From contig CAZMKN010000001.1 of assembly GCA_964567095.1 (NCBI GenBank), positions 11,675 to 75,674 on the forward strand: a stretch of DNA of 64,000 bases. Reading direction: 5' to 3'. Of this stretch, positions 8,801 to 37,297 are shown in pieces (position 1 is the stretch's first letter; each line of letters opens with the position of its first letter). Source of the stretch: an uncultured Candidatus Saccharibacteria bacterium. Its GTDB lineage: Bacteria > Patescibacteriota > WWE3 > UBA101185 > UBA10185. A program made the position numbers and the translations under genes. The notes beneath the pieces are model-generated. The model ran no database searches. It saw nothing but the letters and a program-made list of their open reading frames with translations, and was not told where the DNA came from.

Positions 8801-9196
8801 ATGGTGGACACAGATATTAATAAACTTAATGATACTGATGATGTAGTGGATTCCGGAAGCATCGAAGCTGTTCGTATGCCTGCGCAAACACCTCCAGAAG
8901 CATTCCCTTTAAGGGAAAAGTTAAAGTCTGTTGAAAGTGAGAAGGCTTTGGAGGCTTTTCCGTCTCCACGACCCCCTATGCCAAAAACAAGATCGGAGTC
9001 TCTAGAGGAAGAACTTTCTGTAGGAATGGGAGAAGATGATCCTGTGAGTAAGTCGGAGGGGCGTTTGGTAGACACACGCGGGAAAGGCGACGTGTCTAAA
9101 ATCGAAACTTTAGATGAGCTAACCAAATACGGAGATCAGGAAGAAAATAAGTTCATTAAAGGTGTCAAGTCTGCCCATGGACCTAGCGAATCTTAA
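8801..9196 (+). CDS. hypothetical acidic, low-complexity protein
   Basis: The ORF shows no recognisable domain and is rich in D/E/S/P. It overlaps the start of the downstream ATPase. Confidence 0.35.
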   Translation: MVDTDINKLNDTDDVVDSGSIEAVRMPAQTPPEAFPLREKLKSVESEKALEAFPSPRPPMPKTRSESLEEELSVGMGEDDPVSKSEGRLVDTRGKGDVSKIETLDELTKYGDQEENKFIKGVKSAHGPSES

Positions 9197-23446: not shown

Positions 23447-24961
23447 TTAATATTTAAAGACCTTCTCAGAGATCCTGAATTTTTCAATGATCGCGCTATT
23501 CTCATCGTTATTTTTGACCAAAATAATTGTGTAATCATCTACATATATTGGTGACCAGCTCGTATCTTTTATCCTTTCGATTAGAAAGGGCTGCGCCCAG
23601 GGAGTTGCATCGTGTCTATAAAAGTAGATGGTCTGGAAGTTGTAGGTTTTGTCCCATTGTTTCCACGTTTCCTCATTCTCTTGTATTTTAATGTAGGTGT
23701 TCTTTAGAAAATCTACGCTATATGCCTCCGGTCGATTGTCTACAAAAACTTTTTGTTCTGGATATAAGTGGTATATTAAATATCCTCCAATGTCGTAATT
23801 GTTGAATATTGGGCCTTTTAAGCTGTTTTCCTTGAAAAATTCTGCGGAGTTATTGTTGTTTGGTAGCACGCCCATCCCAGTTTGTGTGTCAAAGGGGGAG
23901 TAGTAGAAGTTTTTTGTAAATATTCCTAACAAACCTAATCCTATGGAAAAAAGATACACCGTCTGCCCGTTTTTATCTGGAAGTCTTGGTATCCTTGCAA
24001 AAAAAGGTATAGCAAAAAACCCAAATAGCGGGATTATCCTGATCATCTTAAATCCGAGAATGGCAAAAGTTATTGTAGGAATAACAAAAATGACCCTTTC
24101 CTTAAATGATTTTTCTTTAACGAAAAATGCAATAAGAACCGGTACTAGAAGTAGCATGACTTCATAGTGGACATATAAGAACTTGGGAAATCTTCTCTGC
24201 ATGAATAAGACAGACTGGTTTTCCACTATCATATACCCGTATTCTCTAAAGATCATGAAAGGTTCTACTAAGCCTTTAAATCCGTATGGATTTATTAAAC
24301 ATATTAGTGTGGACAGGAAAATTATTATTGATATCTGTCTTACATACTCACTATCTTTTTGGTTTATTAATCCGTCTAACCAAAAAATACCGATCAGAAA
24401 TAATCCGAATATGAAAAATATATGTAAATTTACCCATAGGAGCTGTAATCCTAAAATTAATGGGAGTACAAATCTGAACTTGAGTTGTTTTTTGCGAAAT
24501 TTGTAGAGTGCGAAAAATAAAATTCCAAGGAAAAGGTAGCTAAAACCTTCCGGTCGGATCTCAGTTCTACTCACAATAAGTGGAATAGTCAGAATAGATA
24601 CGATGGTGGCTTTTTTTATTGATGTTTCTTCCTTTGCAATAAGAAAGAATAGGACTATTGGTATGGCGTTAATAAATGCATAAAAAATCGATAGGCCTGT
24701 GAAACCTACCCAACCATGTACTTTTGCAAATATTATTCCTGAAGCCCAATGATGGTTTATAGTTTTGTTTTCAGGTTCAGTATATGAGTAGAAGTTGGTA
24801 GAGATTATTTGCTTGGTTGCTAATGTGATTTGGCCGTTTTTTATATGTCGTCCAAGGTCGGCAGTTGTTAGGTTTATTTTCTTAGCAAAGAAAAAGAAGC
24901 TGTAGAGAAAAATAAATGTTGTTAAAACTAACGCGACGACTTTATCCTCCATTTTGATCAT
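23447..24961 (-). CDS. polytopic membrane protein, GT-C-like (ArnT/PMT-type) with a C-terminal soluble domain
   Basis: About 11 TM helices and then a ~140 aa soluble C-terminus. The start is probably at MIKMEDKVV... (24961), not the listed 25012, because an intergenic repeat occupies 24994-25062. Confidence 0.4.
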   Translation of the reverse strand: MIKMEDKVVALVLTTFIFLYSFFFFAKKINLTTADLGRHIKNGQITLATKQIISTNFYSYTEPENKTINHHWASGIIFAKVHGWVGFTGLSIFYAFINAIPIVLFFLIAKEETSIKKATIVSILTIPLIVSRTEIRPEGFSYLFLGILFFALYKFRKKQLKFRFVLPLILGLQLLWVNLHIFFIFGLFLIGIFWLDGLINQKDSEYVRQISIIIFLSTLICLINPYGFKGLVEPFMIFREYGYMIVENQSVLFMQRRFPKFLYVHYEVMLLLVPVLIAFFVKEKSFKERVIFVIPTITFAILGFKMIRIIPLFGFFAIPFFARIPRLPDKNGQTVYLFSIGLGLLGIFTKNFYYSPFDTQTGMGVLPNNNNSAEFFKENSLKGPIFNNYDIGGYLIYHLYPEQKVFVDNRPEAYSVDFLKNTYIKIQENEETWKQWDKTYNFQTIYFYRHDATPWAQPFLIERIKDTSWSPIYVDDYTIILVKNNDENSAIIEKFRISEKVFKY

Positions 24962-24993
24962 GGAGAAATTATAACAGGGCGAAAAGCAGCAAT

Positions 24994-25062
24994 GGTCGAG
25001 CACGTCGGTCATGAAATTTCAGAAAATGTTGTACGATACTCGGCTTCTCTAGGATACATGGT
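24994..25062. repeat. intergenic repeat copy A (GGTCGAG-N6-GGTCATGAAATTT...)
   Basis: GGTCGAGCACGTCGGTCATGAAATTTCAGAAAATGTTGTACGATAC... is ~70% identical over ~70 nt to the copy at 26011. Confidence 0.6.
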
Positions 25063-25065
25063 TGA

Positions 25066-25983
25066 TTATAGCGAACCATGTTTACATCTTTTTAGTGCCT
25101 TTAATATATCAAGTATAGAGTCAGAAATATTGCCCTCCTGAAGATTTTCAAAAAATGTGGTTATAAATAGCATGCCTCTATTTTTTTCCAACTCCAAACC
25201 CTTTTCTATTTCATAATTATCAAAGACACGCTCACTTATAAACCCAATATGTACAGCCCTAATTAAATGTTCCTCGAAGCAAATTCGCCAATTATTGTAT
25301 GCTTTCGGATATTTCGGATGTTGTTTTGCCTCTTCAAGTAAATTTTCGATTTCATCAATATCTTTTCTATAAGGTTTTAATACTTCCTTTGCAATTGGAT
25401 GAGAACCTTCATGAATAATAGCGTGAAGTAGTGCTCGTTTGTTAATTTCCCCCATAACACCTACTACTTGGTAATTAATGTTTCCAATCTGTGGTCCAAA
25501 GCTTCCGTGGGTAAATGGGTTTGGAATTACGACCATTTCATTTTTTACTTTCTTTCCCCATACTCTTTCTAACATTTCCTCAACATTTGCTTGTGAAATA
25601 ATTTGTTCCATTTCTTTTTTTATAGCTTCAAGGGAAATTTCTAGTTCCTTATAATAAGTTTTAAAATCAGTTTTATTGTAGAAATCAACTAAATAGGGTT
25701 TAATAATTTTACCTTTATCAATATGCCAGTGAAGTTCCGAGGATATCTCAACATTTCTCGGTTCAAATTCTGGAGGTTTACCAACGGTTAGTGACCAAAC
25801 CACCACCTTGTGCTCATGAATATATTCACCTACTTTTGGTGCATTTCCCATATAATCTTTGAAATGATTTTTTACCTGTTCTTGTAATGGGTGGGTGTTT
25901 GAATCTCCACCTGCCTGGTCAAATCTATTTAGAAATGAGTAGAGAAGTGTGAGATTTTCATTGGTTTCAACTCGTATACTCAT
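25066..25983 (-). CDS. putative zinc metallopeptidase-like protein (HExxH)
   Basis: AIIHEGSHPI contains HExxH. Otherwise no recognisable domain. Confidence 0.4.
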   Translation of the reverse strand: MSIRVETNENLTLLYSFLNRFDQAGGDSNTHPLQEQVKNHFKDYMGNAPKVGEYIHEHKVVVWSLTVGKPPEFEPRNVEISSELHWHIDKGKIIKPYLVDFYNKTDFKTYYKELEISLEAIKKEMEQIISQANVEEMLERVWGKKVKNEMVVIPNPFTHGSFGPQIGNINYQVVGVMGEINKRALLHAIIHEGSHPIAKEVLKPYRKDIDEIENLLEEAKQHPKYPKAYNNWRICFEEHLIRAVHIGFISERVFDNYEIEKGLELEKNRGMLFITTFFENLQEGNISDSILDILKALKRCKHGSL

Positions 25984-26010
25984 ATGGTAATAATAACAAA
26001 GTAGACTTGG

Positions 26011-26097
26011 TTGAGTACGTTGGTATTGAAATTTCTGGAAATGTTATTCCATACATGGTTTCTCCAGGCTATATGGTCGAGAAGGAGCGATGAATCT
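26011..26097. repeat. intergenic repeat copy B plus partial B'
   Basis: GGTTGAGTACGTTGGTATTGAAATTTCTGGAAATGTT...CATACATGGTTTCTCCAGGCTATATGGTCGAGAAGGAGCGATGAAT, with a second GGTCGAG start at 26077. Confidence 0.6.
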
Positions 26098-26371
26098 TGA
26101 ACAGCTTTTACCACTTGCAGAATCTATATTTGAGAATTGGAATACAGAAAAGTTTGATGAGAGTTTGTTAGTTCCAGTAGGTATGGGTATGAAATATGCG
26201 GCTTCCTACAAGTATTAGCTTTGAAAACAAAAACAACTCCATAGGGAGTTGTTCATAATGGAAGCGAGTCTCTTGATGATTCTTCATCATTGTAGGCGCC
26301 CAATCGTGCCTCGTTATTCGATGCTAAAAGCACCTATATTCGCTTGATAAGTAAATTGTATCATATGAAAA

Positions 26372-26387
26372 TGGTCGGGGTGACAGG
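26372..26387. repeat. att-like direct repeat matching the 3' end of tRNA-Pro (15/16 nt)
   Basis: TGGTCGGGGTGACAGG here versus TGGTCGGGGTGACTGG at 36254-36269, which is the acceptor/T-arm 3' end of the minus-strand tRNA. Confidence 0.5.
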
Positions 26388-26549
26388 CAATACCGTCGCT
26401 ACGCTCCTGTTGCATCCACAACTACTAAGTTCACTAAGTATTGTGTAGACTCTTTCTCGCATGTCACACAAACAAGAAAAATGCCCACATCCATCTTTGA
26501 CGGATCTGTACACTTTTCTGGTCGACCATAGTAACTAGTGTTCGCAGCT

Positions 26550-26750
26550 TTATTTAGTAAATATTCCTATACAGGCGTGTTGCTCTAACTTTCCTGGATT
26601 TGTGGGATTTTTGTAGACCTTTGTAACGATTCTTATCCCCATGCAATTTTCTATCACGCCTCCGGCATCATGTCTGTTGAATAGGAACAATCCAAGTGCC
26701 GTAATTACTACTAATATGCTGAATGCAATGAAAATCGACTTTGTGTTCAT
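26550..26750 (-). CDS. small hydrophobic protein (66 aa)
   Basis: Single predicted TM helix. The call is weak. Confidence 0.25.
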   Translation of the reverse strand: MNTKSIFIAFSILVVITALGLFLFNRHDAGGVIENCMGIRIVTKVYKNPTNPGKLEQHACIGIFTK

Positions 26751-26802
26751 AACTATATATTATCAAAAAAACATGGTTTGCCATAGCTGACCACATTTGT
26801 AA

Positions 26803-26985
26803 CTATTTCTTGGGAGTAAAGAAGTAACTTATTGCACAAAATCCAAACCCGAACAGTTCTATTATTAGTATAAATAACAAACTAGTATGACCTGAAACAA
26901 CAAAATAACCGGAAATCAGGGTTAAAAAACCAAAGAAGCTCATGAGATTTCTTGATAATAATTTACTCACGTTGTAATTGTACAA
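26803..26985 (-). CDS. small hydrophobic protein (60 aa)
   Basis: Two predicted TM helices. The call is weak. Confidence 0.25.
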   Translation of the reverse strand: MYNYNVSKLLSRNLMSFFGFLTLISGYFVVSGHTSLLFILIIELFGFGFCAISYFFTPKK

Positions 26986-26994
26986 AATTTTCCT

Positions 26995-27040
26995 GGTCGA
27001 GAAGTACGGTCATGAAATATTATTCTCTTCAGGATGTAAA
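26995..27040. repeat. intergenic repeat copy C
   Basis: GGTCGAGAAGTACGGTCATGAAATATTATTCTC. It lies immediately upstream (in minus-strand sense) of the small 60-aa ORF at 26803-26985. Confidence 0.55.
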
Positions 27041-27117
27041 TAAGACAAACGAGACACTACAGGAAACTTTTTCTAGGTATATCTTGCTATATTTTTTCAG
27101 CGAAAGCTTGGCTTATT

Positions 27118-27558
27118 CTAAACTTCAAGAATGGTCTTTAAGTTTTCAAGCATCTGACGTGTTGTGTTTTGGGCAATTTTATTAATTATTAGTTTGTTCG
27201 TTATTCTTTGTAATGCGGTTTCCGAAAGTTCATAGTCGATTTGAACTTTTACTTCTGTACTGCCATTATCTGTCGAAGTTAACTCGTAGGTCCATGTTGA
27301 GTCAGCGTCTCCTTTTGAGGAAATCACGACTTTAGTTGGAGCTGTATATTCTATAACCTCAGCTTTTCCTCTAAGGTCGCTTCCAGCCATGTTAAATCGC
27401 CAATCAAATTTTTGACCAACACCGTCTTGTTCAGGGAAGATATTGGTATTCTCGTTTAAATTAGGTACGAAAGCTGGGCCATTATACGGGGATGCCATAT
27501 AGGTAAAAACTTCGTTTAACGGTTTATTAATAGTAGTTTTTGATGAAACTGTAGTCAT
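27118..27558 (-). CDS. SRPBCC (Bet v1-like / polyketide cyclase-like) small-ligand-binding protein
   Basis: At 146 aa, its secondary-structure pattern and size fit the SRPBCC/Polyketide_cyc2 fold. Confidence 0.4.
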   Translation of the reverse strand: MTTVSSKTTINKPLNEVFTYMASPYNGPAFVPNLNENTNIFPEQDGVGQKFDWRFNMAGSDLRGKAEVIEYTAPTKVVISSKGDADSTWTYELTSTDNGSTEVKVQIDYELSETALQRITNKLIINKIAQNTTRQMLENLKTILEV

Positions 27559-27608
27559 TTTTGTGTTCCTTAAAATAATTACGCTTACTATTTGAGTTTA
27601 TCACAAAA

Positions 27609-28064
27609 TTAAAGTAGATAATTTTGGATGAACTTTCTGAATACTTCCTTGGTGATGAGCACTCTTTTCGAATATTTCTTTGTACTAAATATAACTAGGT
27701 TTAATTTTCTACATAATTTATATGATTTTATTTTTGTACTGCTATCGATTAAGTGGACATCAGCTAAATGTTCCACGGGGGATCTTGTTATATTGGAAGC
27801 CTTTTCAAGAGCTTCGAATATATGTATTGTTGTTATTCCATACACTAACCACATTTCAGTAGTAAAGAAAAGCATTGCTATTAGGATTGCTATGGCTAAA
27901 GACCAGACGCCAAAAGATGGAAAGCTGATTAAACTTAAGGATACACCAAGTGCAGTCAAACCTCGTTGTCTAACTAGTATTGGCCTGTTTTTGTGTAAGG
28001 GTAATACAAAATAATAAGCTGCTAATGTAATCACGCCTACACATGCAAAATAGAAAACTACCAT
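27609..28064 (-). CDS. small membrane protein (151 aa, ~4 TM)
   Basis: Hydrophobic ORF that is co-oriented with, and tightly spaced to, the lipid operon. Confidence 0.4.
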   Translation of the reverse strand: MVVFYFACVGVITLAAYYFVLPLHKNRPILVRQRGLTALGVSLSLISFPSFGVWSLAIAILIAMLFFTTEMWLVYGITTIHIFEALEKASNITRSPVEHLADVHLIDSSTKIKSYKLCRKLNLVIFSTKKYSKRVLITKEVFRKFIQNYLL

Positions 28065-28088
28065 AATATTATTCTATGTTACTTTGTT

Positions 28089-28982
28089 TCATACGCAAAA
28101 TATAGTGATCGTCGTGTAAGTTAGTATTATGTAGAGAAGTGTGGTGGATCTATAAAGTTTTGCGAAGAGAGTATCTTTTGAGATTGCGTATATAAGTCCC
28201 ACAAAACCCATTACCACAGTAAAAATAACGATTAAATTTATATTAAGTGCAACTGGTACCTTATCTAGAAACAGTATGTTAAGTGCAGCCATTAACATTA
28301 CTAATAGAACCGCGCCCAATTTCCCAAATACTTTAGAATATGAGTTTAAGTTTTTCTTTTCTTCACTTTGGGCATAAGTTTTTCTACCAAACTCAAAAAT
28401 ATTGAATATAAACCATCCTCCGAACGAAAAATATAGTAAATCAAGCGAAAAGTCCGCGGGATCGTTAGCAAACAGAGCGATAAATAGAGTTTGTGATATA
28501 AGTATCACTATAAAAGTGTGAGTTATAGCATATGTAGTAAGGTGTGCTCTCAGCCATTCTTTTAAGAAGAACTCTTTATACATTAGTAAAGAATAGCCAA
28601 TAGTAATTAAACAGAGTAATAAAGGTTGTTTACCGTAGAACGAGAATATAAGAATTTCTACTATAATGAGGAAAAGTATGACCTGTTTAATCTCCCTTTT
28701 ATGAAGAAACCCTCGGGGCACGGGTCTTTCAGGATGAAAATTTTTGTCAAACTCAATATCTTTAATTTCATCATATAAACGTAAGATGAAGAAAAAAAGC
28801 GCAACTGCTAAAAATAATGGTATTAAGTGAAGAAAATCAGAGTACGATTCATGGAGGTCAGTAGCTATAAGATGGGTATACAAAGTGTAATGACTACCAA
28901 TAAAAACTACGATCATTGGGAAATGGTATAGGGGATTAAAACGTTCCATAATGAATTGTATCCATCTACTTAAGCTTTTCAT
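28089..28982 (-). CDS. UbiA-family aromatic/isoprenoid prenyltransferase
   Basis: Polytopic protein with LYDEIKDIEFDKNFHPERPVPRG, an Asp-rich motif plus the RP(L/V)P(S/R)G signature of UbiA enzymes. Confidence 0.6.
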   Translation of the reverse strand: MKSLSRWIQFIMERFNPLYHFPMIVVFIGSHYTLYTHLIATDLHESYSDFLHLIPLFLAVALFFFILRLYDEIKDIEFDKNFHPERPVPRGFLHKREIKQVILFLIIVEILIFSFYGKQPLLLCLITIGYSLLMYKEFFLKEWLRAHLTTYAITHTFIVILISQTLFIALFANDPADFSLDLLYFSFGGWFIFNIFEFGRKTYAQSEEKKNLNSYSKVFGKLGAVLLVMLMAALNILFLDKVPVALNINLIVIFTVVMGFVGLIYAISKDTLFAKLYRSTTLLYIILTYTTITIFCV

Positions 28983-30621
28983 TTAGCTCCTGTCGCAAAT
29001 CATTGTAGTTAACTTTGCTGTGATGTCTAACATCCATGGGTATCTTTTCTAAGTACACTACTTTATCAAGTGGAATTTTGGCGTCTCTGAAAGTTTTAAA
29101 AATCGTGTCTTTGCACTTATTTTTATCCTTGTTGTTCTCATTAAGTGTCACAACAGCCGTAATAGTTTGTTTGTTTTTACAATTTAGGTCTATATAAGCA
29201 GCATTAGAAACAAAGGATAGGTTTTTTAGTAAAATTTCTGGTTGAACAGGAAACAGATAATCATTTTTATATTTAATTACATTGTGTTTTCTTCCCACTA
29301 TCCATAAGGAATCGTTGTCGTCTATTCTGGCTAAATCTCCTGTGCGATGCCAAATAGCCCCATTTTTATCTATAATTTTCGAACGAGTAAATGCTTCGGC
29401 GTTTTTATAGTATTCTTTGCAGACATTTTCACCTGTAACCACAAGTTCACCCACTTCTCCTTTTTTCACTTTTAGTGTAGATAAATCTGTAGGTTCATTA
29501 AAACATTTTGTGCCTATGTTTATAAATTCATATTTTAAGTGCTCATCGATTTTGCCAACATTCACACCTTTTTTTGTTACGTTTTTTATTTTGGAAGACT
29601 CAGTACTAAGCATTTCTTTTGCTTCGATATAAGAAATTGGTTCTACTTCAGTGGATCCGTATAGTATCCAATTTTTTGAGTTTGGTGTTATTTCTGTAAA
29701 ATTTGAAATATCTGTTTCACTTATAGGTGCGCCCCCAGTTAATACTCTGGAGATATTTTGTAAAGATTTATTATTTTTGTTGCAATATTTAGTTAAACTT
29801 TTGAGAGATGATGGTGCAAGTGTCATACAAGTGACTTTACATTCTTCAATTTGAGATAGGAGTATTTCAGGATCTTTTGGAGTGGGACGACTGACATCTA
29901 TTGCTGGGATAACCGTTGATATACCAGATGCTAGGTTGTTTAAAGTGAAAACTGGAAATACAGGTAAATCAATATCACTGTTTTTGTAAGGAAATAATCT
30001 TTTCAGAGCACAATGCTGTGCGCAAAGAAATCTGTGTGTTCTGTTCACTCCCTTTGGCGTTCCTGAACTACCTGTCGTGTATGTTAAAAGGCCTGTTTGT
30101 TCTTGGTTAACGGGCTGTATTTTATGAGGAGCATTGTCTAGCAATCCTTTAGTGTTTTGTGAATCCAAAGCCCAAAAGTTGTTGTTTGATATTTGAATCT
30201 TAGTTTTAAGATTATTGAAATACTCTTTAAATACGGGTAGCCACGTATCTAACGATATGATGCCAACAGGATTGGCATTTTTCATTATGGAAATCAACCG
30301 GTCCTTACGAGTTATGGAATCTATGAGAACTGGAACTGCTCCAAGAACCTGTAATCCCACTAGAGCTATATACAATTCAACCGAAATTGGCGCCACAACA
30401 ATCATATTTTCGTTCTGTTTTATTCCAAGGTTGTGTAAGCTTTTAGCAAATCTAATTGTTTTATCGTATAGCTGGGCATATGTAATTTGTTCATAACTGG
30501 TAGGAGATTTATTAGATTTGAAATAGAATGCAACCTTATCACCATTATCTTGTGCATGTTTTTTTAGAAAATAAGCCACATTGTTTTTAATACTTAATGT
30601 TGGATGGTGACCTGTTTTCAT
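28966..30621 (-). CDS. acyl-AMP ligase (ANL/AMP-binding superfamily; fatty acyl-AMP ligase-like)
   Basis: AMP-binding motif LTYTTGSSGTPKGV. The start at ATG 30621 overlaps the upstream stop (ATGA). The N-terminus resembles FAAL. Confidence 0.7.
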   Translation of the reverse strand: MKTGHHPTLSIKNNVAYFLKKHAQDNGDKVAFYFKSNKSPTSYEQITYAQLYDKTIRFAKSLHNLGIKQNENMIVVAPISVELYIALVGLQVLGAVPVLIDSITRKDRLISIMKNANPVGIISLDTWLPVFKEYFNNLKTKIQISNNNFWALDSQNTKGLLDNAPHKIQPVNQEQTGLLTYTTGSSGTPKGVNRTHRFLCAQHCALKRLFPYKNSDIDLPVFPVFTLNNLASGISTVIPAIDVSRPTPKDPEILLSQIEECKVTCMTLAPSSLKSLTKYCNKNNKSLQNISRVLTGGAPISETDISNFTEITPNSKNWILYGSTEVEPISYIEAKEMLSTESSKIKNVTKKGVNVGKIDEHLKYEFINIGTKCFNEPTDLSTLKVKKGEVGELVVTGENVCKEYYKNAEAFTRSKIIDKNGAIWHRTGDLARIDDNDSLWIVGRKHNVIKYKNDYLFPVQPEILLKNLSFVSNAAYIDLNCKNKQTITAVVTLNENNKDKNKCKDTIFKTFRDAKIPLDKVVYLEKIPMDVRHHSKVNYNDLRQELNEKLK

Positions 30622-31358
30622 AAAATCATACCTTTTTTTTGAAATATTTTTATCTGTTCTAAACTTGGTGTTGAAGTTATTTTTGGAGTGATGCAATTGT
30701 TTGGAGTTCCTGTTGGTAATTTTCCTGTTTGATCTATTTTATTGATAAAGCTAACTACAGCCTCTTTTTCTTTTTGAGCACAAGTTTTTAGATATTTGAT
30801 ATAGTTTCTTTCGGGTTTAATTTTTTCCGTATAGTAAATACTACCCCTGTCAATTTTTTTAACCATTTTATGAATAGAAAAACCGGTATCTTTATTTTCT
30901 GCCAGGGCATTGAGATCACAAAATAATCCTTTTTGTTTTGGTAATAATCCGTGATGTACATTTACACAACCTAATCTTGGAATGTTTAAAATTTTGTTTT
31001 TAAATATACATCTAGTACGCATGTTGATAACTATGTCCGGTTTTAAAGAGTTAACCCAAGATACTGCGGTACGACTATTAACATCAGAAATGTTTACAAA
31101 TGGTATTGCGTATTTCTCAAGCATTCTTTCTTTAGTTTTAGAGATTGAACTTATAATATTTCTAAAAAGGGTTTTTGCTATATTTTTGCATCCAGCAAGA
31201 TAAAGATATGGTATTTTAGTAAATATTCTGCCTTTATTAATATCCACTAAAACCACTCCTGCCAAGTGATTTTTTGATCTGGAGAGTATAAAATCTAGTA
31301 CATCCCTATAATTGTTTGGCGCATAAGTGATGCTGGATGTTACTAAAACTATTCTCAT
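30618..31358 (-). CDS. formyltransferase-domain protein (Fmt/ArnA N-domain-like)
   Basis: MRIVLVTSS... Rossmann start and CVNVHHGLLPKQKGL, which corresponds to the formyl-transferase N(I/V)H.SLLP..RG motif. Confidence 0.6.
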   Translation of the reverse strand: MRIVLVTSSITYAPNNYRDVLDFILSRSKNHLAGVVLVDINKGRIFTKIPYLYLAGCKNIAKTLFRNIISSISKTKERMLEKYAIPFVNISDVNSRTAVSWVNSLKPDIVINMRTRCIFKNKILNIPRLGCVNVHHGLLPKQKGLFCDLNALAENKDTGFSIHKMVKKIDRGSIYYTEKIKPERNYIKYLKTCAQKEKEAVVSFINKIDQTGKLPTGTPNNCITPKITSTPSLEQIKIFQKKGMIL

Positions 31359-31360
31359 GT

Positions 31361-32446
31361 TTATAATTTTCTATATATACCAAAGGAATACATTTGGATT
31401 TTTTCTTGTCTAATCAAATTTTTATAATCATTAGTAATATCAACGTAACCATTTTCATTTAATTTCTCTGGTATTCTCATATAATAGCGGTTGACTATAA
31501 TCCCGCCTGGAGAAATACTGTCGCGAATTTCTTGAAGAAAGTTTTGTTCTTGAGGTGGTTTTAGATAGGATGGAATATCAGACATCGACAAAAAAGTGGT
31601 TGGTTCGGGCGTGTTTTTGGTTACTTCTATAATATTTTGATGTTTATAGTTAATATTTGTTTTTTCTAAAGCATTTTTAGCACTCAAAAAAATATCTATA
31701 TCTGCCTCCAGTGGAGCTCCCTCAAGAAATTTAATTTCTCCAAAAAAAAGTAACTGCAAAAAATAATTATGGCTAACTAACCCTTGCTTAAACAAGTTGT
31801 CGAATCTTTCCAAATAGAATTTTTGATAGGTCCCACCAATATTCTTTTTGGGGAAATCACCTCTATATAATAATGTATTAAAGACAGCGGCATTTCCTAG
31901 TAAGTAAACTGCTAAGGACCAATTTCTCTTGGGAAATTTAGAAGAAAAATATATTTTCTGTTCTTCTAACGTTTTACACGAAAATACATCCAGTCCTTTT
32001 TTTCCAACTAAACCCCTTACAATCTTACTTAATTTCTTAAAAGTTTTTTCCCATTTTCCTACGTATAGGATAGGATTCCAATTATTTGTGTTAAATATAT
32101 TAGAGGTAATATTTTTAGCATCAGGTGATAAGGCAAGATTTTCGAATATATCGCGTCTTTCTTTATTGCACATGGTGCCTTTTGTGTACCCCCAAAATGC
32201 TAGAAACTTTTGGTGAGTTAAATATTTGACTGTGGCTAAACGTAACTCTACTAGAGCCAGCTGTTCTATTGAAAGATCAACGCAGGTAAGTTGTTGTGGG
32301 GATTTTGCGAGTAAAGGGATTATTCTTGAACCGCTACCGGCGGCAGCAATTACATGCCGTGTTTTTTTCGGAAGTAACTCCCACTCAAGCGTAGTATCTT
32401 CATTTCCCAGAGTGTAATTTAGTGCGTTGAAAAATCCATCTTTCAT
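31361..32446 (-). CDS. DUF3419 / BtaA-like SAM-dependent (3-amino-3-carboxypropyl)transferase-like protein
   Basis: HVIAAAGSGSRIIPLL...LTCVDLSIEQLALVELRLA...FLAFWGY parallels the BtaA signature (itSaGcN...VDlNpaQ.aLLELK...F..FfG). The assignment is from memory of that family. Confidence 0.45.
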   Translation of the reverse strand: MKDGFFNALNYTLGNEDTTLEWELLPKKTRHVIAAAGSGSRIIPLLAKSPQQLTCVDLSIEQLALVELRLATVKYLTHQKFLAFWGYTKGTMCNKERRDIFENLALSPDAKNITSNIFNTNNWNPILYVGKWEKTFKKLSKIVRGLVGKKGLDVFSCKTLEEQKIYFSSKFPKRNWSLAVYLLGNAAVFNTLLYRGDFPKKNIGGTYQKFYLERFDNLFKQGLVSHNYFLQLLFFGEIKFLEGAPLEADIDIFLSAKNALEKTNINYKHQNIIEVTKNTPEPTTFLSMSDIPSYLKPPQEQNFLQEIRDSISPGGIIVNRYYMRIPEKLNENGYVDITNDYKNLIRQEKIQMYSFGIYRKL

Positions 32447-32469
32447 AAATAGATAATATCATTCGTGTT

Positions 32470-33639
32470 TTAAACTTTAATATGTTCTAGGATATTTTCT
32501 TTTGCATATGTGTTTATAGAATGCAGGAATTTACGCGTTATCTTTGGGGGATTTCCTAAGTATTTTTGGGCATTAATTCTGTCAAAAAAATATCTTTTAC
32601 TGACATAGGGTATATACCAACTGACATGTTTTGTATATTTACGAATAGGAAATACCAAAACATATAATAAATGAATGAGTGACTTGAATACCCAGGACGT
32701 AACTGGTATTAGCTTAGTTTTATTAATCCCCATATCATACAAAATGTTCTTTAATACAAAATTAAATTCTGGAGGTTCCGGATGCGTAAGATTAAGTGTA
32801 ATACCTTTTAGATTATTTTTGCAAGATACAACCATAGAATTAATAACATAATCAATTGGTATCATATTAACTCTACCTGTTTTAGGATATGGAATAACTA
32901 ACCATGGGAGATCCAGAACATTCTCAGATTTATGGTAATTGGTTCCTAATAAATCTAATATTTTCGCTGGTAATTTATCCTTTTGCAAAGAACCAATAAC
33001 GCTCTTTTTTAGAAAGTGGAACATAAAAGTAAAACGATAATACCCAAAAGTGCAACCCTCGGCTTTTCCAATATAAGCATCCCCGATAATAATAGAAGGT
33101 CTGAAAATCACATACGGTAAATCACAGTTTTCGCGAACATATTGTTCCCCCCTTAATTTTGATTTTTCATATTGGTTTCTATGTTTCTGTCCCACATCCA
33201 ATTCCTCTTCTGTAAATGAGTAGTGATTTCCACAAACATATGCAGTACTCATATGCATAAACTTAACACCTGTTTTATTTGCAAAATCAACCACATTTAC
33301 AGTTCCCTCGTAGTTTGTTTTATTCACTGTAGATTTATCTGATTTAGAAAATGATAAGTTTGCAGCAAGGTGCCAGAATACTGTGTCATTGTGTTTCAGT
33401 TCATTACAAATTTCTTTTGAAATGCCCAGGTTTTGATCTAATATATCTCCCTTCAGAACTTTAAAGTTATTAGGATACTTTGTTAACTGTTTACTAAATA
33501 TTTTTTTTGCTCTCATTTCAACGGTGCTACCATCTAGATTTCTTATTATTATCCAAACTGTTTCTCCTTCGTTTAGGAGAGCACTAACCAGGTTTCTTCC
33601 AACAAAGCCTGTGGCACCTGTTACAAAGTGTATTTTCAT
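32470..33639 (-). CDS. NAD(P)-dependent thioester/fatty-acyl reductase (NAD_binding_4, 'male sterility' family)
   Basis: MKIHFVTGATGFVGRNLVSALL Rossmann motif, a catalytic YxxxK region and a C-terminal extension as found in fatty-acyl reductases. Confidence 0.6.
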   Translation of the reverse strand: MKIHFVTGATGFVGRNLVSALLNEGETVWIIIRNLDGSTVEMRAKKIFSKQLTKYPNNFKVLKGDILDQNLGISKEICNELKHNDTVFWHLAANLSFSKSDKSTVNKTNYEGTVNVVDFANKTGVKFMHMSTAYVCGNHYSFTEEELDVGQKHRNQYEKSKLRGEQYVRENCDLPYVIFRPSIIIGDAYIGKAEGCTFGYYRFTFMFHFLKKSVIGSLQKDKLPAKILDLLGTNYHKSENVLDLPWLVIPYPKTGRVNMIPIDYVINSMVVSCKNNLKGITLNLTHPEPPEFNFVLKNILYDMGINKTKLIPVTSWVFKSLIHLLYVLVFPIRKYTKHVSWYIPYVSKRYFFDRINAQKYLGNPPKITRKFLHSINTYAKENILEHIKV

Positions 33640-34283
33640 AAAATAAAGTATAGAACAATGCCGGAGGAAATTGGAATGAAAACATTATCCCACCCTTTGC
33701 TAAAAAGACTTTCCACTAAGGTTACTGCAAGAGTGCCCATAAGAACTGCTTGAATTTTGTTTAATGAGAAATTACTCTCGTGGATTAGTAAACTACTGAA
33801 AATAAAAAGGGTCACCAGAAAAAAGGTTAAACTACCTTCTACAGTCTTTAAACCGGTAAGATTATATTTGTGTTTTCCATACCTATTACCTATTATTCCT
33901 GCCATTCCGTCCGAGAAGCCAAGGATAAGGATCGCACCCTGAAATATTACTGGGTTATATGACCAAAATAATAGAGCCACAAAAATAATAGTAATTGGAA
34001 ATAAAAAAGCCCCATGACTACCAGTGTCGTTTTCGTGTACACTTTTCAAAACTTTATAACGTTTTGAAAATAAAAGAAGTAAAAAGAAAAAGATGCCAAG
34101 TACTACAACACCTTGCAGGTTAATAAACAGTGGCATAAGTGCAGCAACGATACTCCCACCAATGTGTACGACTTTTCGAGTTATGTAGGGAGCAACATTC
34201 CTCTTATAAAGAACCTCTCCAATTCCAAAAACAATAAGATATAAAATTACTATTAATAAAAAGTTAATATTGAGTATATTCAT
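33636..34283 (-). CDS. CTP-dependent polyprenol/phytol/dolichol kinase-like membrane protein (CdsA/CTP_transf_1 superfamily)
   Basis: RKVVHIGGS and GNRYGKHKYNLTGLKTVEGSLTFF, the latter matching the G..K...KT.EG signature shared by phytol/dolichol kinases and CdsA. Confidence 0.45.
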   Translation of the reverse strand: MNILNINFLLIVILYLIVFGIGEVLYKRNVAPYITRKVVHIGGSIVAALMPLFINLQGVVVLGIFFFLLLLFSKRYKVLKSVHENDTGSHGAFLFPITIIFVALLFWSYNPVIFQGAILILGFSDGMAGIIGNRYGKHKYNLTGLKTVEGSLTFFLVTLFIFSSLLIHESNFSLNKIQAVLMGTLAVTLVESLFSKGWDNVFIPISSGIVLYFIL

Positions 34284-34284
34284 A

Positions 34285-35877
34285 TCAGATTTTTACCTTT
34301 CCTTCATGCAAATCTAGAGTTATTTCTACACCACTCTTAATAAAACTAGTTATTTTTTCAACTCCTACAATACAGGGTATATTTAATTCACGTGCGACAA
34401 TAGCTGCATGTGATAGCATTCCCCCTCTCTCTACAACTATGCCTCTTAGCAAAGGAAATACTATAGTCCACCCGGGATCTGTTTGTCGGGTGACCAGGAT
34501 TTTACCCTCAAAATCAGCTGTTGGGTCGAAATCCATAAGGGATAAAGAAACTCCTGTTACCACCTTTGTATTTACAGGTCGCGAGGCAACTCTTCCAATA
34601 AATGTGCGTTTTTCGGGAGCTTTCGTTACCAATTTTGCTTTAAGCAGTTCTTTTTCAAGCTGCATCACAGTCTTTATAGTCTCAAACCTATGAGCAAGAT
34701 CAATTTTGCCCCATTTATTAAATTCCTTTTTTCTACGTGTTACGCATCTTAAAGTATCTATTTTTTTATTACCGTTAATGATGTCGAAAATCTCATCAAT
34801 CCTTAAGAAATAGATATCACGTTTATTATTGATGATTTGTTCTTTTTCAAATCTGATACCTATATTTATAAAAATTTCTCTTATCAACCCAAAGATCAGT
34901 GTTCTTTTAAATCGAGATTCTTCTCTTCTTTTAATTGAGTTATCAGCCCATTTTAACAACCATTTTAGAAAAATCCTTCTAAAAAGGTTCAAACTTTTTA
35001 GCTTATTGTGATTTACTGAGTTTTTACTGATTTTCTTATTTATTGATTTAACTTGTAATAGTGACTGAAGCAATAATATTAGATTTTCGGGTTTTTCATT
35101 TAGTGTCTCAGACTCTAATTTTAGCTCGTTTGGTATTCTGGTACCAAAATTTTCAATATAACTTCTGATATCAACACTGACCTGTTGTTCTGAATAAATG
35201 TTTTCTAGAGAATTAACTATCTTGTGTGGTTCGTTTTCGGAAAACAACTTTTTTAATTTCGGATTTTCCTTTATTAACGAAATGATATTTGCTAATTTTT
35301 TACCCGGATCGAGAGTTACCAATGGGGTATTTGTATCTGATCTCATATACATATAAGCATCTGATGAATTTAGCCAGGATTTGAACAGTTTATCTGCTGC
35401 CCCCGTGCTTACCATTACAGCAAAATCATTTGCAATTGGAGCCCGCCAACGTGATAGGAGTTTTTTTGCTGCTTCATTGTATATACTCATCAATTCTTTT
35501 GTGTTTAGTTTAGTCAAATCTATAGAATTTAATTTTGAGTAAACTTTATTAAAATAAGAGTTAAACCTGGGTACAGTAAATTTTAGTGAACCGAAAGTAA
35601 TTGAAATACGAAAAAATTGATACACAGTCTTGGGCAGGTAAATAAGATTCTTTCTGAAAAAAGTGAGTGGAGTATTCTCATCATTGTTGTCGAAAGTTTT
35701 CCTAATTGTTACACCCATCATTTTTTCCATAAATTCACTACTTAATTTATGAGCAGGAAAAAAAGAAAGCATTTTGTACCAACTACTCAGGTTGTAGTAG
35801 ATTCTGTATCCGATAAATTCCACCATACATTCAAACATGGGTTTATTGTCTTTGATGACCCTTTCACTAGCCCCCAT
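34285..35877 (-). CDS. PEP-utilising-enzyme mobile (swivel His) domain protein, PEP synthase/rifampin-phosphotransferase-like
   Basis: The C-terminal GGMLSHAAIVARELNIPCIVGVE is the phospho-His swivel-domain signature. The ~420 aa N-terminal region is unassigned. Confidence 0.55.
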   Translation of the reverse strand: MGASERVIKDNKPMFECMVEFIGYRIYYNLSSWYKMLSFFPAHKLSSEFMEKMMGVTIRKTFDNNDENTPLTFFRKNLIYLPKTVYQFFRISITFGSLKFTVPRFNSYFNKVYSKLNSIDLTKLNTKELMSIYNEAAKKLLSRWRAPIANDFAVMVSTGAADKLFKSWLNSSDAYMYMRSDTNTPLVTLDPGKKLANIISLIKENPKLKKLFSENEPHKIVNSLENIYSEQQVSVDIRSYIENFGTRIPNELKLESETLNEKPENLILLLQSLLQVKSINKKISKNSVNHNKLKSLNLFRRIFLKWLLKWADNSIKRREESRFKRTLIFGLIREIFINIGIRFEKEQIINNKRDIYFLRIDEIFDIINGNKKIDTLRCVTRRKKEFNKWGKIDLAHRFETIKTVMQLEKELLKAKLVTKAPEKRTFIGRVASRPVNTKVVTGVSLSLMDFDPTADFEGKILVTRQTDPGWTIVFPLLRGIVVERGGMLSHAAIVARELNIPCIVGVEKITSFIKSGVEITLDLHEGKVKI

Positions 35878-36136
35878 TAAACGAGAGAAATGTTGGTATA
35901 CCTCTTGATAAACGTATCGTACAAAAGAAAATGTAAGGGGCGTAGTAACACCCGAGTAACTTTCGGCAATATTAGAATTATCGTAAATTATTTTATTATT
36001 TTTATCGCTTATTAAAACATTATAACTTAGTATCCTAGTGGCATTTACTGTTTTTTAGAACTTTCCATATTTTTCAAGATTCCTCCAGATAATCCGTTAT
36101 TGATAGCATATACGTGTTTTAACATCGCTAGAATAT

Positions 36137-36170
36137 CAAGCAAAACCAAGCAAAACCAAGCAAAACAGAG
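36137..36170. repeat. short tandem repeat (CAAAACCAAG x3, last copy degenerate)
   Basis: caag-caaaaccaag-caaaaccaag-caaaacagag. Confidence 0.5.
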
Positions 36171-36253
36171 GCTCGGGAGTTGGATTATTGGAATGGGTTT
36201 TATCAAACCACTAAAAGGTGTTTTAGGCATCATGGTCGTTCTGATGCCCATTC

Positions 36254-36332
36254 TGGTCGGGGTGACTGGACTTGAACCAGCGAAACCTCCCGGCCCCCAG
36301 CCGGGCGCTCTAGCCAACTGAGCTACACCCCG
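36254..36332 (-). tRNA. tRNA-Pro (anticodon GGG), CCA encoded
   Basis: Minus strand reads CGGGGUG-UA-GCUC-AGUUGGCUA-GAGC-G-CCCGG-CUGGGGG-CCGGG-AGGUUUC-GCUGG-UUCAAGU-CCAGU-CACCCCG-A-CCA. It has a 7-bp acceptor with C1:G72 and A73 (both typical of Pro), G37, and a T-loop UUCAAGU. Confidence 0.8.
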
Positions 36333-36400
36333 TCAACAGAAGGGATTATATCATAGTAAGATCCTTGACTCTTTCGGTATTTCTTCGTATAATCATTCCA

Positions 36401-37297
36401 ATGCCCACACTTATTTCCGTAACTTGTATAAACTGTAAAAAGCACTATTCCATTACACTAAAAAGGTATAACGAATCTCTTAAGAAAGGTTGGAATTTCT
36501 ATTGTAGTCCTGAGTGTAGGAAAGAATTTCGTAAGACGGGTAAGCTACTCACCTGTGACAATCCTGATTGTTCCAGTAAATTTTATAGAGCTAAATGTTT
36601 CATTAATGAGACTGGTAATTTCTGTTCCCAAAGTTGTGCTGCCTCCATTAACAACAATCTTAGGAAAAAAGAGCTGTCAAAGATCTGTGCCAACCCTTCC
36701 TGTGATAATAAAATTCCCCCTAGAAATACCTATTGCTCCAATAAATGCAGGGGGGAAGTTTTGAGGAAATCCGAAAGCTATTATAAGGAAAAAACCCTGA
36801 AAGGAATTAACGATTTTGTGCGATCTCACGGAAGAATTCCCCTGAAGGTTGAGTTACCCTCCACTTATACCTTTTCTAGGAAGGGTTTTGGTACCTGGAA
36901 TAAAGCTATAAAAGCCGCAGGACATATGCCTAACCCCATTCTCTTTGCTCGCAAACACATTGCTTTGGATGGCCATGTTTGTGATTCATTCTCCGAAATG
37001 ATTATAGATAATTGGTTATACAGTTATTCTATTCCCCATAAAATAAACGTACATTATCCCAAGAATTCCAAACTCACCACCGATTTTGTAGTAGGTGACT
37101 ATTGGATAGAATTTTTTGGTTTGGCAGGAGATTTAATCGCTTATGACAAAAATGTGCAGAGAAAACTTCGAATAGCTAAGGACCAAAATTTGGAATTGAT
37201 TAAACTTTATCCAAAGGACTTATATCCTAAAAATATATTGGAGAAAACACTACAACCTGTTTTATATCACTATGCTAAAGCCTTCGTGTTTGTATAG
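36401..37297 (+). CDS. zinc-ribbon-repeat protein with an uncharacterised C-terminal domain
   Basis: Five or more consecutive CxxC...CxxC modules (CINCKK...CSPEC, CDNPDC...C, CSQSC, CANPSCDNK...CSNKC), then a ~170 aa domain (ALDGHVCDSFSEMIID...DFVVGDYWIEFFG). The listed 36365 start is TTG; ATG at 36401 is more likely. Confidence 0.45.
   Translation: MPTLISVTCINCKKHYSITLKRYNESLKKGWNFYCSPECRKEFRKTGKLLTCDNPDCSSKFYRAKCFINETGNFCSQSCAASINNNLRKKELSKICANPSCDNKIPPRNTYCSNKCRGEVLRKSESYYKEKTLKGINDFVRSHGRIPLKVELPSTYTFSRKGFGTWNKAIKAAGHMPNPILFARKHIALDGHVCDSFSEMIIDNWLYSYSIPHKINVHYPKNSKLTTDFVVGDYWIEFFGLAGDLIAYDKNVQRKLRIAKDQNLELIKLYPKDLYPKNILEKTLQPVLYHYAKAFVFV

What the first reader, a model, noticed from the sequence alone, without database searches (positions are those of the whole stretch)
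24994..27040. Family of four related intergenic repeats with a GGTCGAG-N6-GGTCATGAAAT(T/A)T core
Copies at 24994 (A), 26011 and 26077 (B, B') and 26995 (C) share a bipartite direct-repeat core followed by a TGAAATTTCA-type palindrome. A and B align over ~70 nt. All sit in intergenic spacers of the minus-strand accessory block: upstream of the GT-C-like gene, upstream of the HExxH gene and upstream of a small membrane ORF. They do not occur in the housekeeping parts of the window. This could be a shared operator for a two-half-site transcription factor, a miniature repeat element, or att/recombination remnants of the island.
Basis: seen in the sequence. Interest (0 to 1): 0.55.

Follow-up and report, generated by a model that had tools for sequence, protein, structure and literature searches.

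The report
Cassette-boundary repeats downstream of tRNA-Pro
The four repeats are real, and they mark the boundaries of small gene cassettes that were inserted one after another at the end of a proline tRNA gene in an uncultured candidate-phylum (WWE3-like) bacterium, which is a familiar kind of insertion hot spot and not a new regulatory element.

Summary
A (24983-25065) and B (25998-26080) share 83 nt at 75% identity. C (26994) and B' (26074) carry the same core, and no other copy exists in the 64 kb.

The interpretation changes when the copies are read on the minus strand, the strand of the genes. Each copy then ends ...TTCATGACC-N6-CTCGACCA, which resembles the T-loop-to-CCA end of tRNA-Pro(GGG) at 36254-36332.

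- In relative L051, tRNA-Pro itself ends (CGACCA) exactly where copy A ends, 20 nt before the -10 box of the 504-aa gene.
- Relative L038 has only a 66-aa ORF between the tRNA and that gene.
- A genuine 16-nt tRNA-Pro 3' fragment lies at 26372-26387.
- The same left and right sequences are joined in different combinations in a strain variant (L036) and in other relatives (L053, L041, L039). The switch is always immediately after ACCA.

The repeats are therefore attachment-site-type junctions of serial cassette insertions, about 11 kb in total.

No integrase was found, no excised form was seen, and the resemblance to the tRNA beyond CGACCA is weak. There is no evidence for an operator, a dispersed miniature element, a structured RNA or a small gene. 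This is a new member of a known kind, of moderate interest.

The parts
24993..25065 (-). Copy A. This is a 66-nt unit (24993-25058) ending in the core TTCATGACCGACGTGCTCGACCA, with the junction after ACCA between 24993 and 24992. It is preceded by the short end motif A' TCAACCA (25059-25065), which abuts the stop codon of the DUF4932 gene.
26008..26073 (-). Copy B. A 66-nt unit ending TTCAATACCAACGTACTCAACCA. The junction after ACCA (26008|26007) is followed at once by the DUF4932 cassette.
26074..26096 (-). Copy B'. A shortened core (TTCATCGCTCCTTCTCGACCA) at the end of the module that holds the 42-aa ORF. In L053 the same end is joined directly to the flank of the 504-aa gene.
26994..27037 (-). 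Copy C. A unit with an internal deletion, ending TTCATGACCGTACTTCTCGACCA|GGAAAAT.
26372..26387 (-). Partial tRNA-Pro 3' end (CCTGTCACCCCGACCA, 15 of 16 identical to the window's own tRNA and 16 of 16 to that of L038). It lies inside a module of about 90 nt (26347-26435) that is 85% identical in L053.
26519..26527 (-). Degenerate junction GGTCGACCA|GAAAAGT. The same right-hand sequence GAAAAGT follows the intact tRNA in L038 and a full core in L053.
36254..36332 (-). Intact tRNA-Pro(GGG), whose 3' end ...TTCAAGTCCAGTCACCCCGACCA faces the inserted block. This is the proposed primary attachment site.
24962..24992 (-). Conserved host flank and promoter of the 504-aa gene: 16 nt, then TGTTATAAT (24968-24976), then 6 nt, then ATG (24961). 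In L051 this flank follows tRNA-Pro directly.
   Evidence: sequence read directly; the simple sigma-70 scan does not score it because there is no -35 match
25066..26007 (-). DUF4932 cassette, with its own TGTTATTAT box, a 305-aa gene and a stop codon that abuts A'. L053 has 78% nt identity over 26002-25057, where the cassette follows the partial tRNA and not copy B.
26097..26371 (-). Module holding a minus-strand terminator-like hairpin (26231-26254) and a 42-aa plus-strand ORF (26090-26218). It is 80% identical in L053, where it is placed next to the 504-aa gene.
26550..26750 (-). 66-aa membrane ORF. Its ortholog (52% aa identity) is the only gene between tRNA-Pro and the 504-aa gene in L038.
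27038..36253 (-). Large cargo block between copy C and tRNA-Pro: SRPBCC, UbiA, AMP-binding, formyltransferase, DUF3419, NAD_binding_4 reductase, a 215-aa protein and a PEP-utiliser protein. The block is absent from L038 and L039.

Best explanation
The repeats are attachment-site-type junction sequences. They are the conserved ends of small gene cassettes that were inserted one after another at the 3' end of the tRNA-Pro(GGG) gene. In uninterrupted relatives this tRNA lies directly in front of the 504-aa membrane-protein gene.

Read on the minus strand, each copy is a 45-68-nt unit ending ...TTCATGACC-N6-CTCGACCA, which resembles the T-loop-to-CCA end of the tRNA. Sequence partners change exactly after ACCA.

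Shown:
- Insertion relative to an empty site.
- The exact position of the junction.
- The same left and right parts joined in different combinations in different strains and species.
- A true partial tRNA within the array.

Inferred:
- A site-specific recombinase encoded elsewhere, probably a tyrosine recombinase, recombines the tRNA end or its look-alikes with a matching site on incoming circular DNA.
- Each event adds one cassette and one more copy.
- Whether the sites are still active or are only scars is not known.
For: 1. The intact tRNA-Pro at 36254-36332 (-) points its 3' end at the block.
2. L051 (504-aa ortholog, 76% aa) reads ...GTCACCCCGACCA|TTGAAATCTCCCACACTGTTATAAT-ATG. The window reads ...GTGCTCGACCA|TTGCTGCTTTTCGCCCTGTTATAAT-ATG. 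L041 and L053 have the same 20-nt geometry.
3. L038 (78% aa) has tRNA-Pro, the 66-aa ORF and the 504-aa gene only, so about 11 kb of the window is inserted DNA.
4. There are true partial tRNA-Pro 3' ends at window 26372-26387, L039 7776 and L053 2392.
5. Parts are joined in different combinations after ACCA:
   - B' is joined to unit B in the window and to the host flank in L053.
   - The DUF4932 cassette follows core B in the window and the partial tRNA in L053.
   - The right part GAAAAGT follows the tRNA in L038, a full core in L053 and a degenerate core in the window.
   - The strain variant D (L036) is identical to A up to ATGGTCGAGCA and then carries a different cassette.
6. In relatives, cores were found only in L036, L039, L041 and L053. 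Every copy in the window, L036, L039 and L053 has the same orientation as the 504-aa gene, and as tRNA-Pro where that gene is on the fetched DNA (window, L039). L041 was outside that search pattern; its CTCGACCA end has the same orientation.
7. The 23-nt core is identical in D and L053, although the neighbouring cargo differs.
8. Copy E is 70% identical to A over 70 nt in a genome whose ortholog of the 504-aa protein is 60% identical.
Against: - No integrase or recombinase domain was found. Pfam scans covered all ORFs of at least 100 aa between 21 and 42 kb and several beyond, including 8.8-14.4 kb and 43-49 kb; most ORFs below 8.8 kb and the rpoB-to-end housekeeping block were not scanned. 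None appears among the called genes of the relatives' loci.
- Beyond CGACCA the core matches the tRNA end at only 13-15 of 23 positions. The whole unit is not significantly similar to the tRNA and gives no tRNA covariance-model hit.
- A and B differ at 25% of positions, so the events are not recent.
- No excised or circular product was observed.
- Copy D comes from a scaffold with a 20-N gap.
- Several relatives are short metagenome contigs.
- Homologous recombination between short repeats could give some of the same permutations.
Confidence: 0.72

Rival explanations
1. The repeats are passive products of segmental duplication. They are reshuffled by ordinary homologous recombination at a variable locus, and no dedicated site-specific recombinase or attachment-site function is involved.
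For: No integrase was found. A and B are 83-nt direct repeats that flank one gene, as a duplication followed by an insertion could produce. The copies are 25-30% diverged.
Against: In five independent comparisons the switch of partner falls at the same base, after ACCA, and not at scattered points within the 83 nt. The shared stretch at several junctions is only 6-8 nt, which is too short for efficient homologous recombination. True partial tRNA ends lie in the array.
Confidence: 0.12
2. The repeat is a shared operator or promoter module. A transcription factor with two half-sites (GACC 13 nt apart) co-regulates the minus-strand genes that follow each copy.
For: A, B and C each lie 10-35 nt upstream of a start codon, and each is followed by a TATAAT-like box plus 6 nt plus the start codon. 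The half-site pattern is kept in copies A, C, D, E and L053.
Against: Copy E lies between the 3' ends of two convergent genes. The distance from the core to the -10 box is 20, 13 and 12 nt. The promoter of the 504-aa gene is conserved in L051 and L038 without the repeat. No regulator gene lies in the block. The -10 boxes lie outside the repeat, in the cassette or host flank.
Confidence: 0.07
3. The repeat is the relic, or a live copy, of a short plus-strand coding sequence (MVEHVGHEIS.../LVEYVGIEIS...), for example the N-terminus of a PaaI-type thioesterase or a small peptide gene.
For: Plus frame 0 is the only frame open in both A and B. Six of 17 changed codons are synonymous (P about 0.05). 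A Cyclobacteriaceae thioesterase gene matches the core as MVEHLGIEI.
Against: The thioesterase match was forced by the search pattern, and its E-value in the window is only 0.84. Copy E has a 1-nt insertion that breaks the frame while nucleotide identity continues. D and B align better with 1-nt indels than in frame. There is no Pfam hit, no ribosome-binding site, and C starts with CTG.
Confidence: 0.04
4. The repeat is a miniature mobile repeat (MITE or REP-like) or a structured small RNA dispersed in the genome.
Against: There are no terminal inverted repeats, and the ends are direct. Folding z-scores run from -1.7 to +0.1 on both strands. There is no Rfam hit. No copies occur away from this locus in the window or in 115 kb of fetched relatives' loci. 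The scans of 596 Gb of genomes and of the metagenome collection gave only chance-level single hits plus this locus.
Confidence: 0.03

Closest known systems
Genomic islands and integrative elements that target the 3' end of tRNA genes, with attL/attR direct repeats made of a partial tRNA (general knowledge; also summarised in bioRxiv 10.1101/2020.12.28.424599)
   Same: The insertions lie 3' of an intact tRNA gene and in its orientation. There is an empty site in relatives, a partial tRNA 3' end inside the array, lower GC, and several insertions stacked at one site.
   Different: No integrase lies in or near the block. Most repeat copies are not plain partial tRNAs: they are a separate 45-68-nt unit that shares only CGACCA and a weak T-loop-like pattern with the tRNA. 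Some inserted modules are only 0.15-1 kb.
Tycheposon-seeded islands of Prochlorococcus (Hackl et al., bioRxiv 10.1101/2020.12.28.424599)
   Same: The paper describes tRNA-seeded flexible islands. Successive integrations push older elements inward, elements are separated by partial tRNA copies, and degenerate remnants and extra partial tRNAs are scattered in the islands. This locus in a small streamlined genome looks the same.
   Different: None of the hallmark genes is present here (tyrosine recombinase, replication module). The lineage is different, and the repeat unit is not simply a tRNA segment.
Integron cassette arrays (attC sites, IntI)
   Same: There is an array of mostly single-gene cassettes in one orientation. 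They are separated by short conserved sites, the cassette order differs between relatives, and the boundary sits at a fixed base of the site.
   Different: The sites have direct ends, not inverted ends, and no hairpin. There is no IntI and no attI or Pc. The cassettes carry their own promoter-like boxes. The array is anchored at a tRNA gene.

Membership tests
tRNA-targeted integrative island (att repeats) | Inserted DNA lies directly 3' of an intact tRNA gene | tested here: met
   tRNA-Pro(GGG) is at 36254-36332 (-) and the block runs from 36253 down to 24993.
tRNA-targeted integrative island (att repeats) | Empty or less-filled site in related genomes, with the same flanks | tested here: met
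   In L051 the tRNA abuts the promoter of the 504-aa gene. L038 has only a 66-aa ORF in between.
tRNA-targeted integrative island (att repeats) | Direct repeat of part of the tRNA gene at the far boundary | tested here: inconclusive
   A true 16-nt fragment lies at 26372-26387. At the outermost boundary (copy A) only CGACCA and 13-15 of 23 positions match, the whole unit is not significantly similar to the tRNA, and there is no covariance-model hit.
tRNA-targeted integrative island (att repeats) | Integrase (tyrosine or serine recombinase) gene within the element | tested here: not met
   No recombinase domain appeared in the Pfam scans, which covered all ORFs of at least 100 aa between 21 and 42 kb and several beyond, but not every ORF of the window, nor among the called genes of L038, L039, L041 and L053. 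The element would have to be served in trans, or be a remnant.
tRNA-targeted integrative island (att repeats) | Excision or circular intermediate | not testable with these tools
   This needs read-level data.
Integron (attC/IntI) | attC with inverted core sites that fold into a hairpin | tested here: not met
   The unit ends are direct (TCAACCA ... TCGACCA). Folding is no better than shuffles on either strand.
Integron (attC/IntI) | Adjacent intI gene with attI and Pc | tested here: not met
   No integrase was found in the Pfam scans of the window.
Transcription-factor operator | Fixed position relative to the regulated promoters, and always upstream of a gene | tested here: not met
   The core-to-box distance is 20, 13 and 12 nt for A, B and C. 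Copy E lies between convergent gene ends.
MITE / REP-type dispersed repeat | Terminal inverted repeats and many dispersed copies | tested here: not met
   No inverted ends were found. Copies occur only at this locus. The complete genome was not available.
Structured RNA family (Rfam) or tRNA pseudogene | Covariance-model match or a significant stable fold | tested here: not met
   No hit on any repeat copy at E up to 10 in 2.2 kb (the two weak hits lie elsewhere), none at E up to 1 in 17 kb apart from the real tRNA-Pro, and z-scores no lower than -1.7.

The most novel reading that the evidence does not exclude
The array is a working, integron-like cassette system of Patescibacteria (WWE3). Single-gene cassettes, each with its own leaderless promoter, would carry a 45-68-nt recombination site that mimics the 3' end of tRNA-Pro. 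A recombinase encoded elsewhere in the small genome, or on a helper element, would insert, excise and reorder them at the tRNA end. This would be a cassette-exchange platform anchored on a tRNA gene and not on attI.
Probability: 0.2. Interest if true: 0.65.

Novelty: new member of a known kind. Interest (0 to 1): 0.4.

Why it matters
This result explains a puzzling repeat family by a simple, testable history. It identifies tRNA-Pro(GGG) as a gene-exchange hot spot in a WWE3-type candidate-phylum bacterium, a group with very small genomes. A search of the held literature found no paper centred on tRNA-linked islands in Patescibacteria.

The exact junctions give ready-made sequence probes for asking whether cassettes still move in the natural population. 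Strain variants with different cassettes at the same junction already coexist in the source metagenomes.

If a recombinase acting in trans is found, the locus would be a compact example of cassette exchange without a resident integrase.

Tried and rejected
- **RNA structure.** Folding of A, B and C on both strands gave z-scores from -1.7 to +0.1. Rfam gave nothing at the gathering or relaxed thresholds.
- **Coding test.** The plus frame gave only a marginal signal. It is contradicted by the frameshift in copy E and by 1-nt indels.
- **Thioesterase lead.** The PaaI lead from L016/L018 is an artefact of the search pattern.
- **Whole unit as a tRNA pseudogene.** Semi-global alignment to tRNA-Pro is no better than shuffles, and there is no tRNA model hit.
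- **Collection scans.** The genome scan gave 11 single hits, about what I estimated for chance, and the organism's own genome was absent. The metagenome scan gave only this locus plus chance hits. The pattern was too strict to find copies such as E or L053. Three viral scans found nothing related, and L055 is an unrelated hairpin.
- **A degenerate unit after DUF4932 in L053.** Not significant, P = 0.06-0.25.
- **More distant homologs of the 504-aa protein (48-49% aa).** They sit in other genomic contexts, with no cores and no tRNA-Pro.
- **Exact look-up of the 521-aa version of the 504-aa gene.** Not on record.
- **Sigma-70 scan.** It does not flag the promoters because they have no -35 match. 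The extended -10 reading rests on direct sequence comparison across orthologs.
Full report

Yes. The 24-nt core occurs at 24994 and 26995 without mismatch and at 26009 with three mismatches. None of 100 shuffles gave three matches. A (24983-25065) and B (25998-26080) align without gaps over 83 nt at 75% identity, with E = 7e-14 within the window. C keeps the core and, after an internal deletion of about 21 nt, the distal motif of the unit. B' (26074) is a core with a 2-nt deletion.

No further copy exists in the 64 kb. The copies lie in a low-GC stretch, 0.32-0.37 against 0.40-0.43 elsewhere. That stretch holds minus-strand genes: a 614-aa protein, a 504-aa membrane protein with no Pfam match, DUF4932, small membrane ORFs, SRPBCC, UbiA, AMP-binding, formyltransferase, DUF3419, a reductase and a PEP-utiliser protein. 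The first two are conserved in the relatives; the inserted genes begin with DUF4932.

**2. First leads that failed**

- Neither strand folds better than shuffles, and Rfam finds nothing.
- Only plus frame 0 is open in both A and B, with a marginal excess of synonymous changes (P about 0.05). A copy in another species (E) keeps the nucleotide similarity across a 1-nt insertion that breaks the frame. A thioesterase match (MVEHLGIEI) was forced by the search pattern.
- Scans of the genome and metagenome collections with a pattern that fits A, B and C returned only chance-level single hits and this same locus.

**3. The turning point**

One metagenome hit (L036, scaffold FUWD013397820.1) is a strain variant. 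It is identical to the window up to ATGGTCGAGCA inside the core and then carries a different cassette, a new minus-strand ORF of at least 200 aa. Its distal arm resembles C.

I then fetched relatives through homologs of the 504-aa protein and of DUF4932.

The window has one tRNA, tRNA-Pro(GGG), at 36254-36332 on the minus strand. Its 3' end reads ...TTCAAGTCCAGTCACCCCGACCA. Read on the same strand, every repeat copy ends in a look-alike of that end:

| Copy | Sequence at the junction |
|---|---|
| A | ...TTCATGACCGACGTGCTCGACCA\|TTGCTG |
| C | ...TTCATGACCGTACTTCTCGACCA\|GGAAAAT |
| B | ...TTCAATACCAACGTACTCAACCA\|AGTC |
| B' | ...CTTCTCGACCA\|TATAGCC |
| A' | ...TCAACCA\|TGTATCC |

The array also holds a true 16-nt tRNA-Pro 3' end at 26372-26387 and a degenerate GGTCGACCA|GAAAAGT at 26519.

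GACC, 13 nt apart) has the same spacing as GTCC ... GACC in the T-arm and acceptor end of the tRNA.

**4. Comparative evidence**

*L051 (ortholog 76% aa).* The contig starts inside tRNA-Pro and reads ...GTCACCCCGACCA|TTGAAATCTCCCACACTGTTATAATTTCCCTATG, running straight into the 504-aa gene. The window reads ...GTGCTCGACCA|TTGCTGCTTTTCGCCCTGTTATAATTTCTCCATG. The end of copy A therefore occupies the exact place of the tRNA's CCA end, 20 nt before the TGTTATAAT box. L041 (82%) and L053 show the same geometry with other left partners.

*L038 (78%).* The order is tRNA-Pro, a 66-aa ORF (52% identical to window 26550-26750) and then the 504-aa gene. There is no DUF4932 and no 9-kb cargo block.

*L039 (60%).* Copy E is 70% identical to A over 70 nt. 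It lies at the far end of a one-gene (cation efflux) insertion downstream of tRNA-Pro and is followed 42 nt later by a partial tRNA end, CACCAGTCACCCCAACCA.

*L053 (DUF4932 homolog, 74% aa).* It holds the same modules as the window in another order:

- A full core (23 of 23 identical to D) is joined to GAAAAGT....
- The partial tRNA is joined directly to the DUF4932 cassette (78% nt identity to window 26002-25057).
- The 42-aa-ORF module ending in B' is joined directly to the flank of the 504-aa gene.

In all these comparisons the change of partner falls immediately after ACCA. Three classes of right-hand partner recur:

- host flank (TTG.../TTT...);
- a purine-rich element start (GAAAAGT, GGAAAAT, GAGAAGA, GAATGGG);
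- the start of the unit itself (TRTAKCCTRGAG).

In relatives, cores were found only in L036, L039, L041 and L053. In the window, L036, L039 and L053 every copy has the same orientation as the 504-aa gene, and as tRNA-Pro where that gene is on the fetched DNA (window, L039). L041's longer-spacer core was outside that search pattern, but its CTCGACCA end has the same orientation. More distant homolog loci have none.

**5. What it is and how it most likely works**

The repeats are attachment-site-type junctions left by serial insertion of cassettes at the 3' end of tRNA-Pro. The ancestral state was the tRNA directly upstream of the 504-aa gene. The window now carries about 11.3 kb of inserted DNA between 24993 and 36254.

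Shown: insertion relative to emptier sites, the exact junction, partners joined in different combinations, a true partial tRNA in the array, and coexisting strain variants.

Inferred: a site-specific recombinase, acting in trans, that recognises the tRNA end or the unit and crosses over in or next to CGACCA, with circular cassette intermediates.

The unit is as well kept across a 60%-aa species distance as coding sequence, and the core is identical in D and L053 next to different cargo. Both suggest constraint or recent transfer, but neither proves activity.

The promoter-like boxes (TGnTATAAT-like, then 6 nt, then the start codon, which looks leaderless) lie outside the repeats, in the host flank or at the start of each cassette. 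This explains why the copies look 'upstream of genes'.

**6. Weak points**

- No integrase was found in the Pfam scans, which covered all ORFs of at least 100 aa between 21 and 42 kb and several beyond, but not every ORF of the window, or in the relatives' loci.
- Beyond CGACCA the core matches the tRNA end at only 13-15 of 23 positions. The whole unit is not demonstrably derived from a tRNA.
- Copy D comes from a scaffold with a 20-N gap.
- The relatives are few, and several are short contigs.
- Homologous recombination between short repeats could cause part of the reshuffling.

**7. Comparison with what is known**

The locus works like a tRNA-seeded flexible island. The tycheposon paper describes successive integrations at one tRNA, elements separated by partial tRNA copies, and degenerate remnants scattered in the islands.

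The locus differs in three ways: there is no resident recombinase, the repeated site is a separate unit that only mimics the tRNA end, and some modules are very small.

It is not an integron. The site ends are direct, there is no hairpin and there is no IntI.

On taxonomy, rpoB is 82% identical to a 'candidate division WWE3 bacterium' protein, and the DUF4932 homologs are named Patescibacteria or WWE3. A literature search found no paper centred on tRNA-linked islands in Patescibacteria.

**8. Verdict**

The finding is real and is explained. It is a new member of a known kind, of moderate interest. The more novel reading, an active integron-like cassette platform anchored on a tRNA, is not excluded; I put it at about 0.2.

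Noticed in passing
window 26347-26435: A module of about 90 nt ends in a true partial tRNA-Pro 3' end (26372-26387). It is 85% identical in L053 and recognisable in L039, so it forms a second conserved junction family, with one copy per genome.
   Followed up: partly
window 36365-37297 (+): A 310-aa protein with a homing-endonuclease-associated repeat (HNH_repeat) and a treble-clef-like motif sits between the DUF975 gene and the 5' side of tRNA-Pro. In L039 the DUF975 gene is followed directly by the tRNA, so this looks like a separate insertion on the other side of the same tRNA.
   Followed up: partly
window 36137-36166 and 36226-36248: There are three perfect tandem copies of CAAGCAAAAC in the spacer between tRNA-Pro and the PEP-utiliser gene. 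A hairpin, GGCATCA-N9-TGATGCC, lies right after the tRNA, and its loop holds another AACGACCA.
   Followed up: partly
window 24968-24976, 25990-25998, 26757-26765; also L038, L039, L041, L051, L053: A TGnTATAAT-like box, then 6 nt, then the start codon recurs before the 504-aa gene, DUF4932 and the 66-aa ORF, and before the orthologs. This suggests extended -10 promoters with leaderless mRNAs. The simple sigma-70 scan misses them.
   Followed up: partly
window 26090-26218 (+): A 42-aa ORF has AAGGAG two bases (CG) before its ATG and lies antisense to the block. The peptide is 67% identical in L053, but there the ATG has become ATA. It is unclear whether this is a gene.
   Followed up: partly
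L001 / L036 (NCBI scaffold FUWD013397820.1): The scaffold joins two strain variants across a 20-N gap. This creates an apparent 270-nt duplication of window 24750-25019, which is an assembly artefact that nevertheless exposes a natural variant.
   Followed up: yes
window 27118-35877 (-): The cargo block looks like a lipid or small-molecule modification cluster: SRPBCC, UbiA prenyltransferase, an adenylating enzyme, formyltransferase, DUF3419, a NAD_binding_4 reductase, a 215-aa membrane protein and a PEP-utiliser/Rph-like protein. It is absent from the close relatives L038 and L039.
   Followed up: no
window 9162-11588 (+): An 808-aa ORF with weak TraG/VirD4 coupling-protein and HerA-type ATPase matches lies in the otherwise housekeeping part of the window.
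   Followed up: no
L031 1159-1188 and L037 3885-3928: Two unrelated metagenome contigs share TGGTCGAGTAACCCGGTTTTGAAATTTTT. Its reverse complement looks like the T-arm-to-CCA end of another tRNA (…TTCAAAACCGGGTTACTCGACCA). This shows that CTCGACCA can be a genuine tRNA 3' end elsewhere.
   Followed up: no
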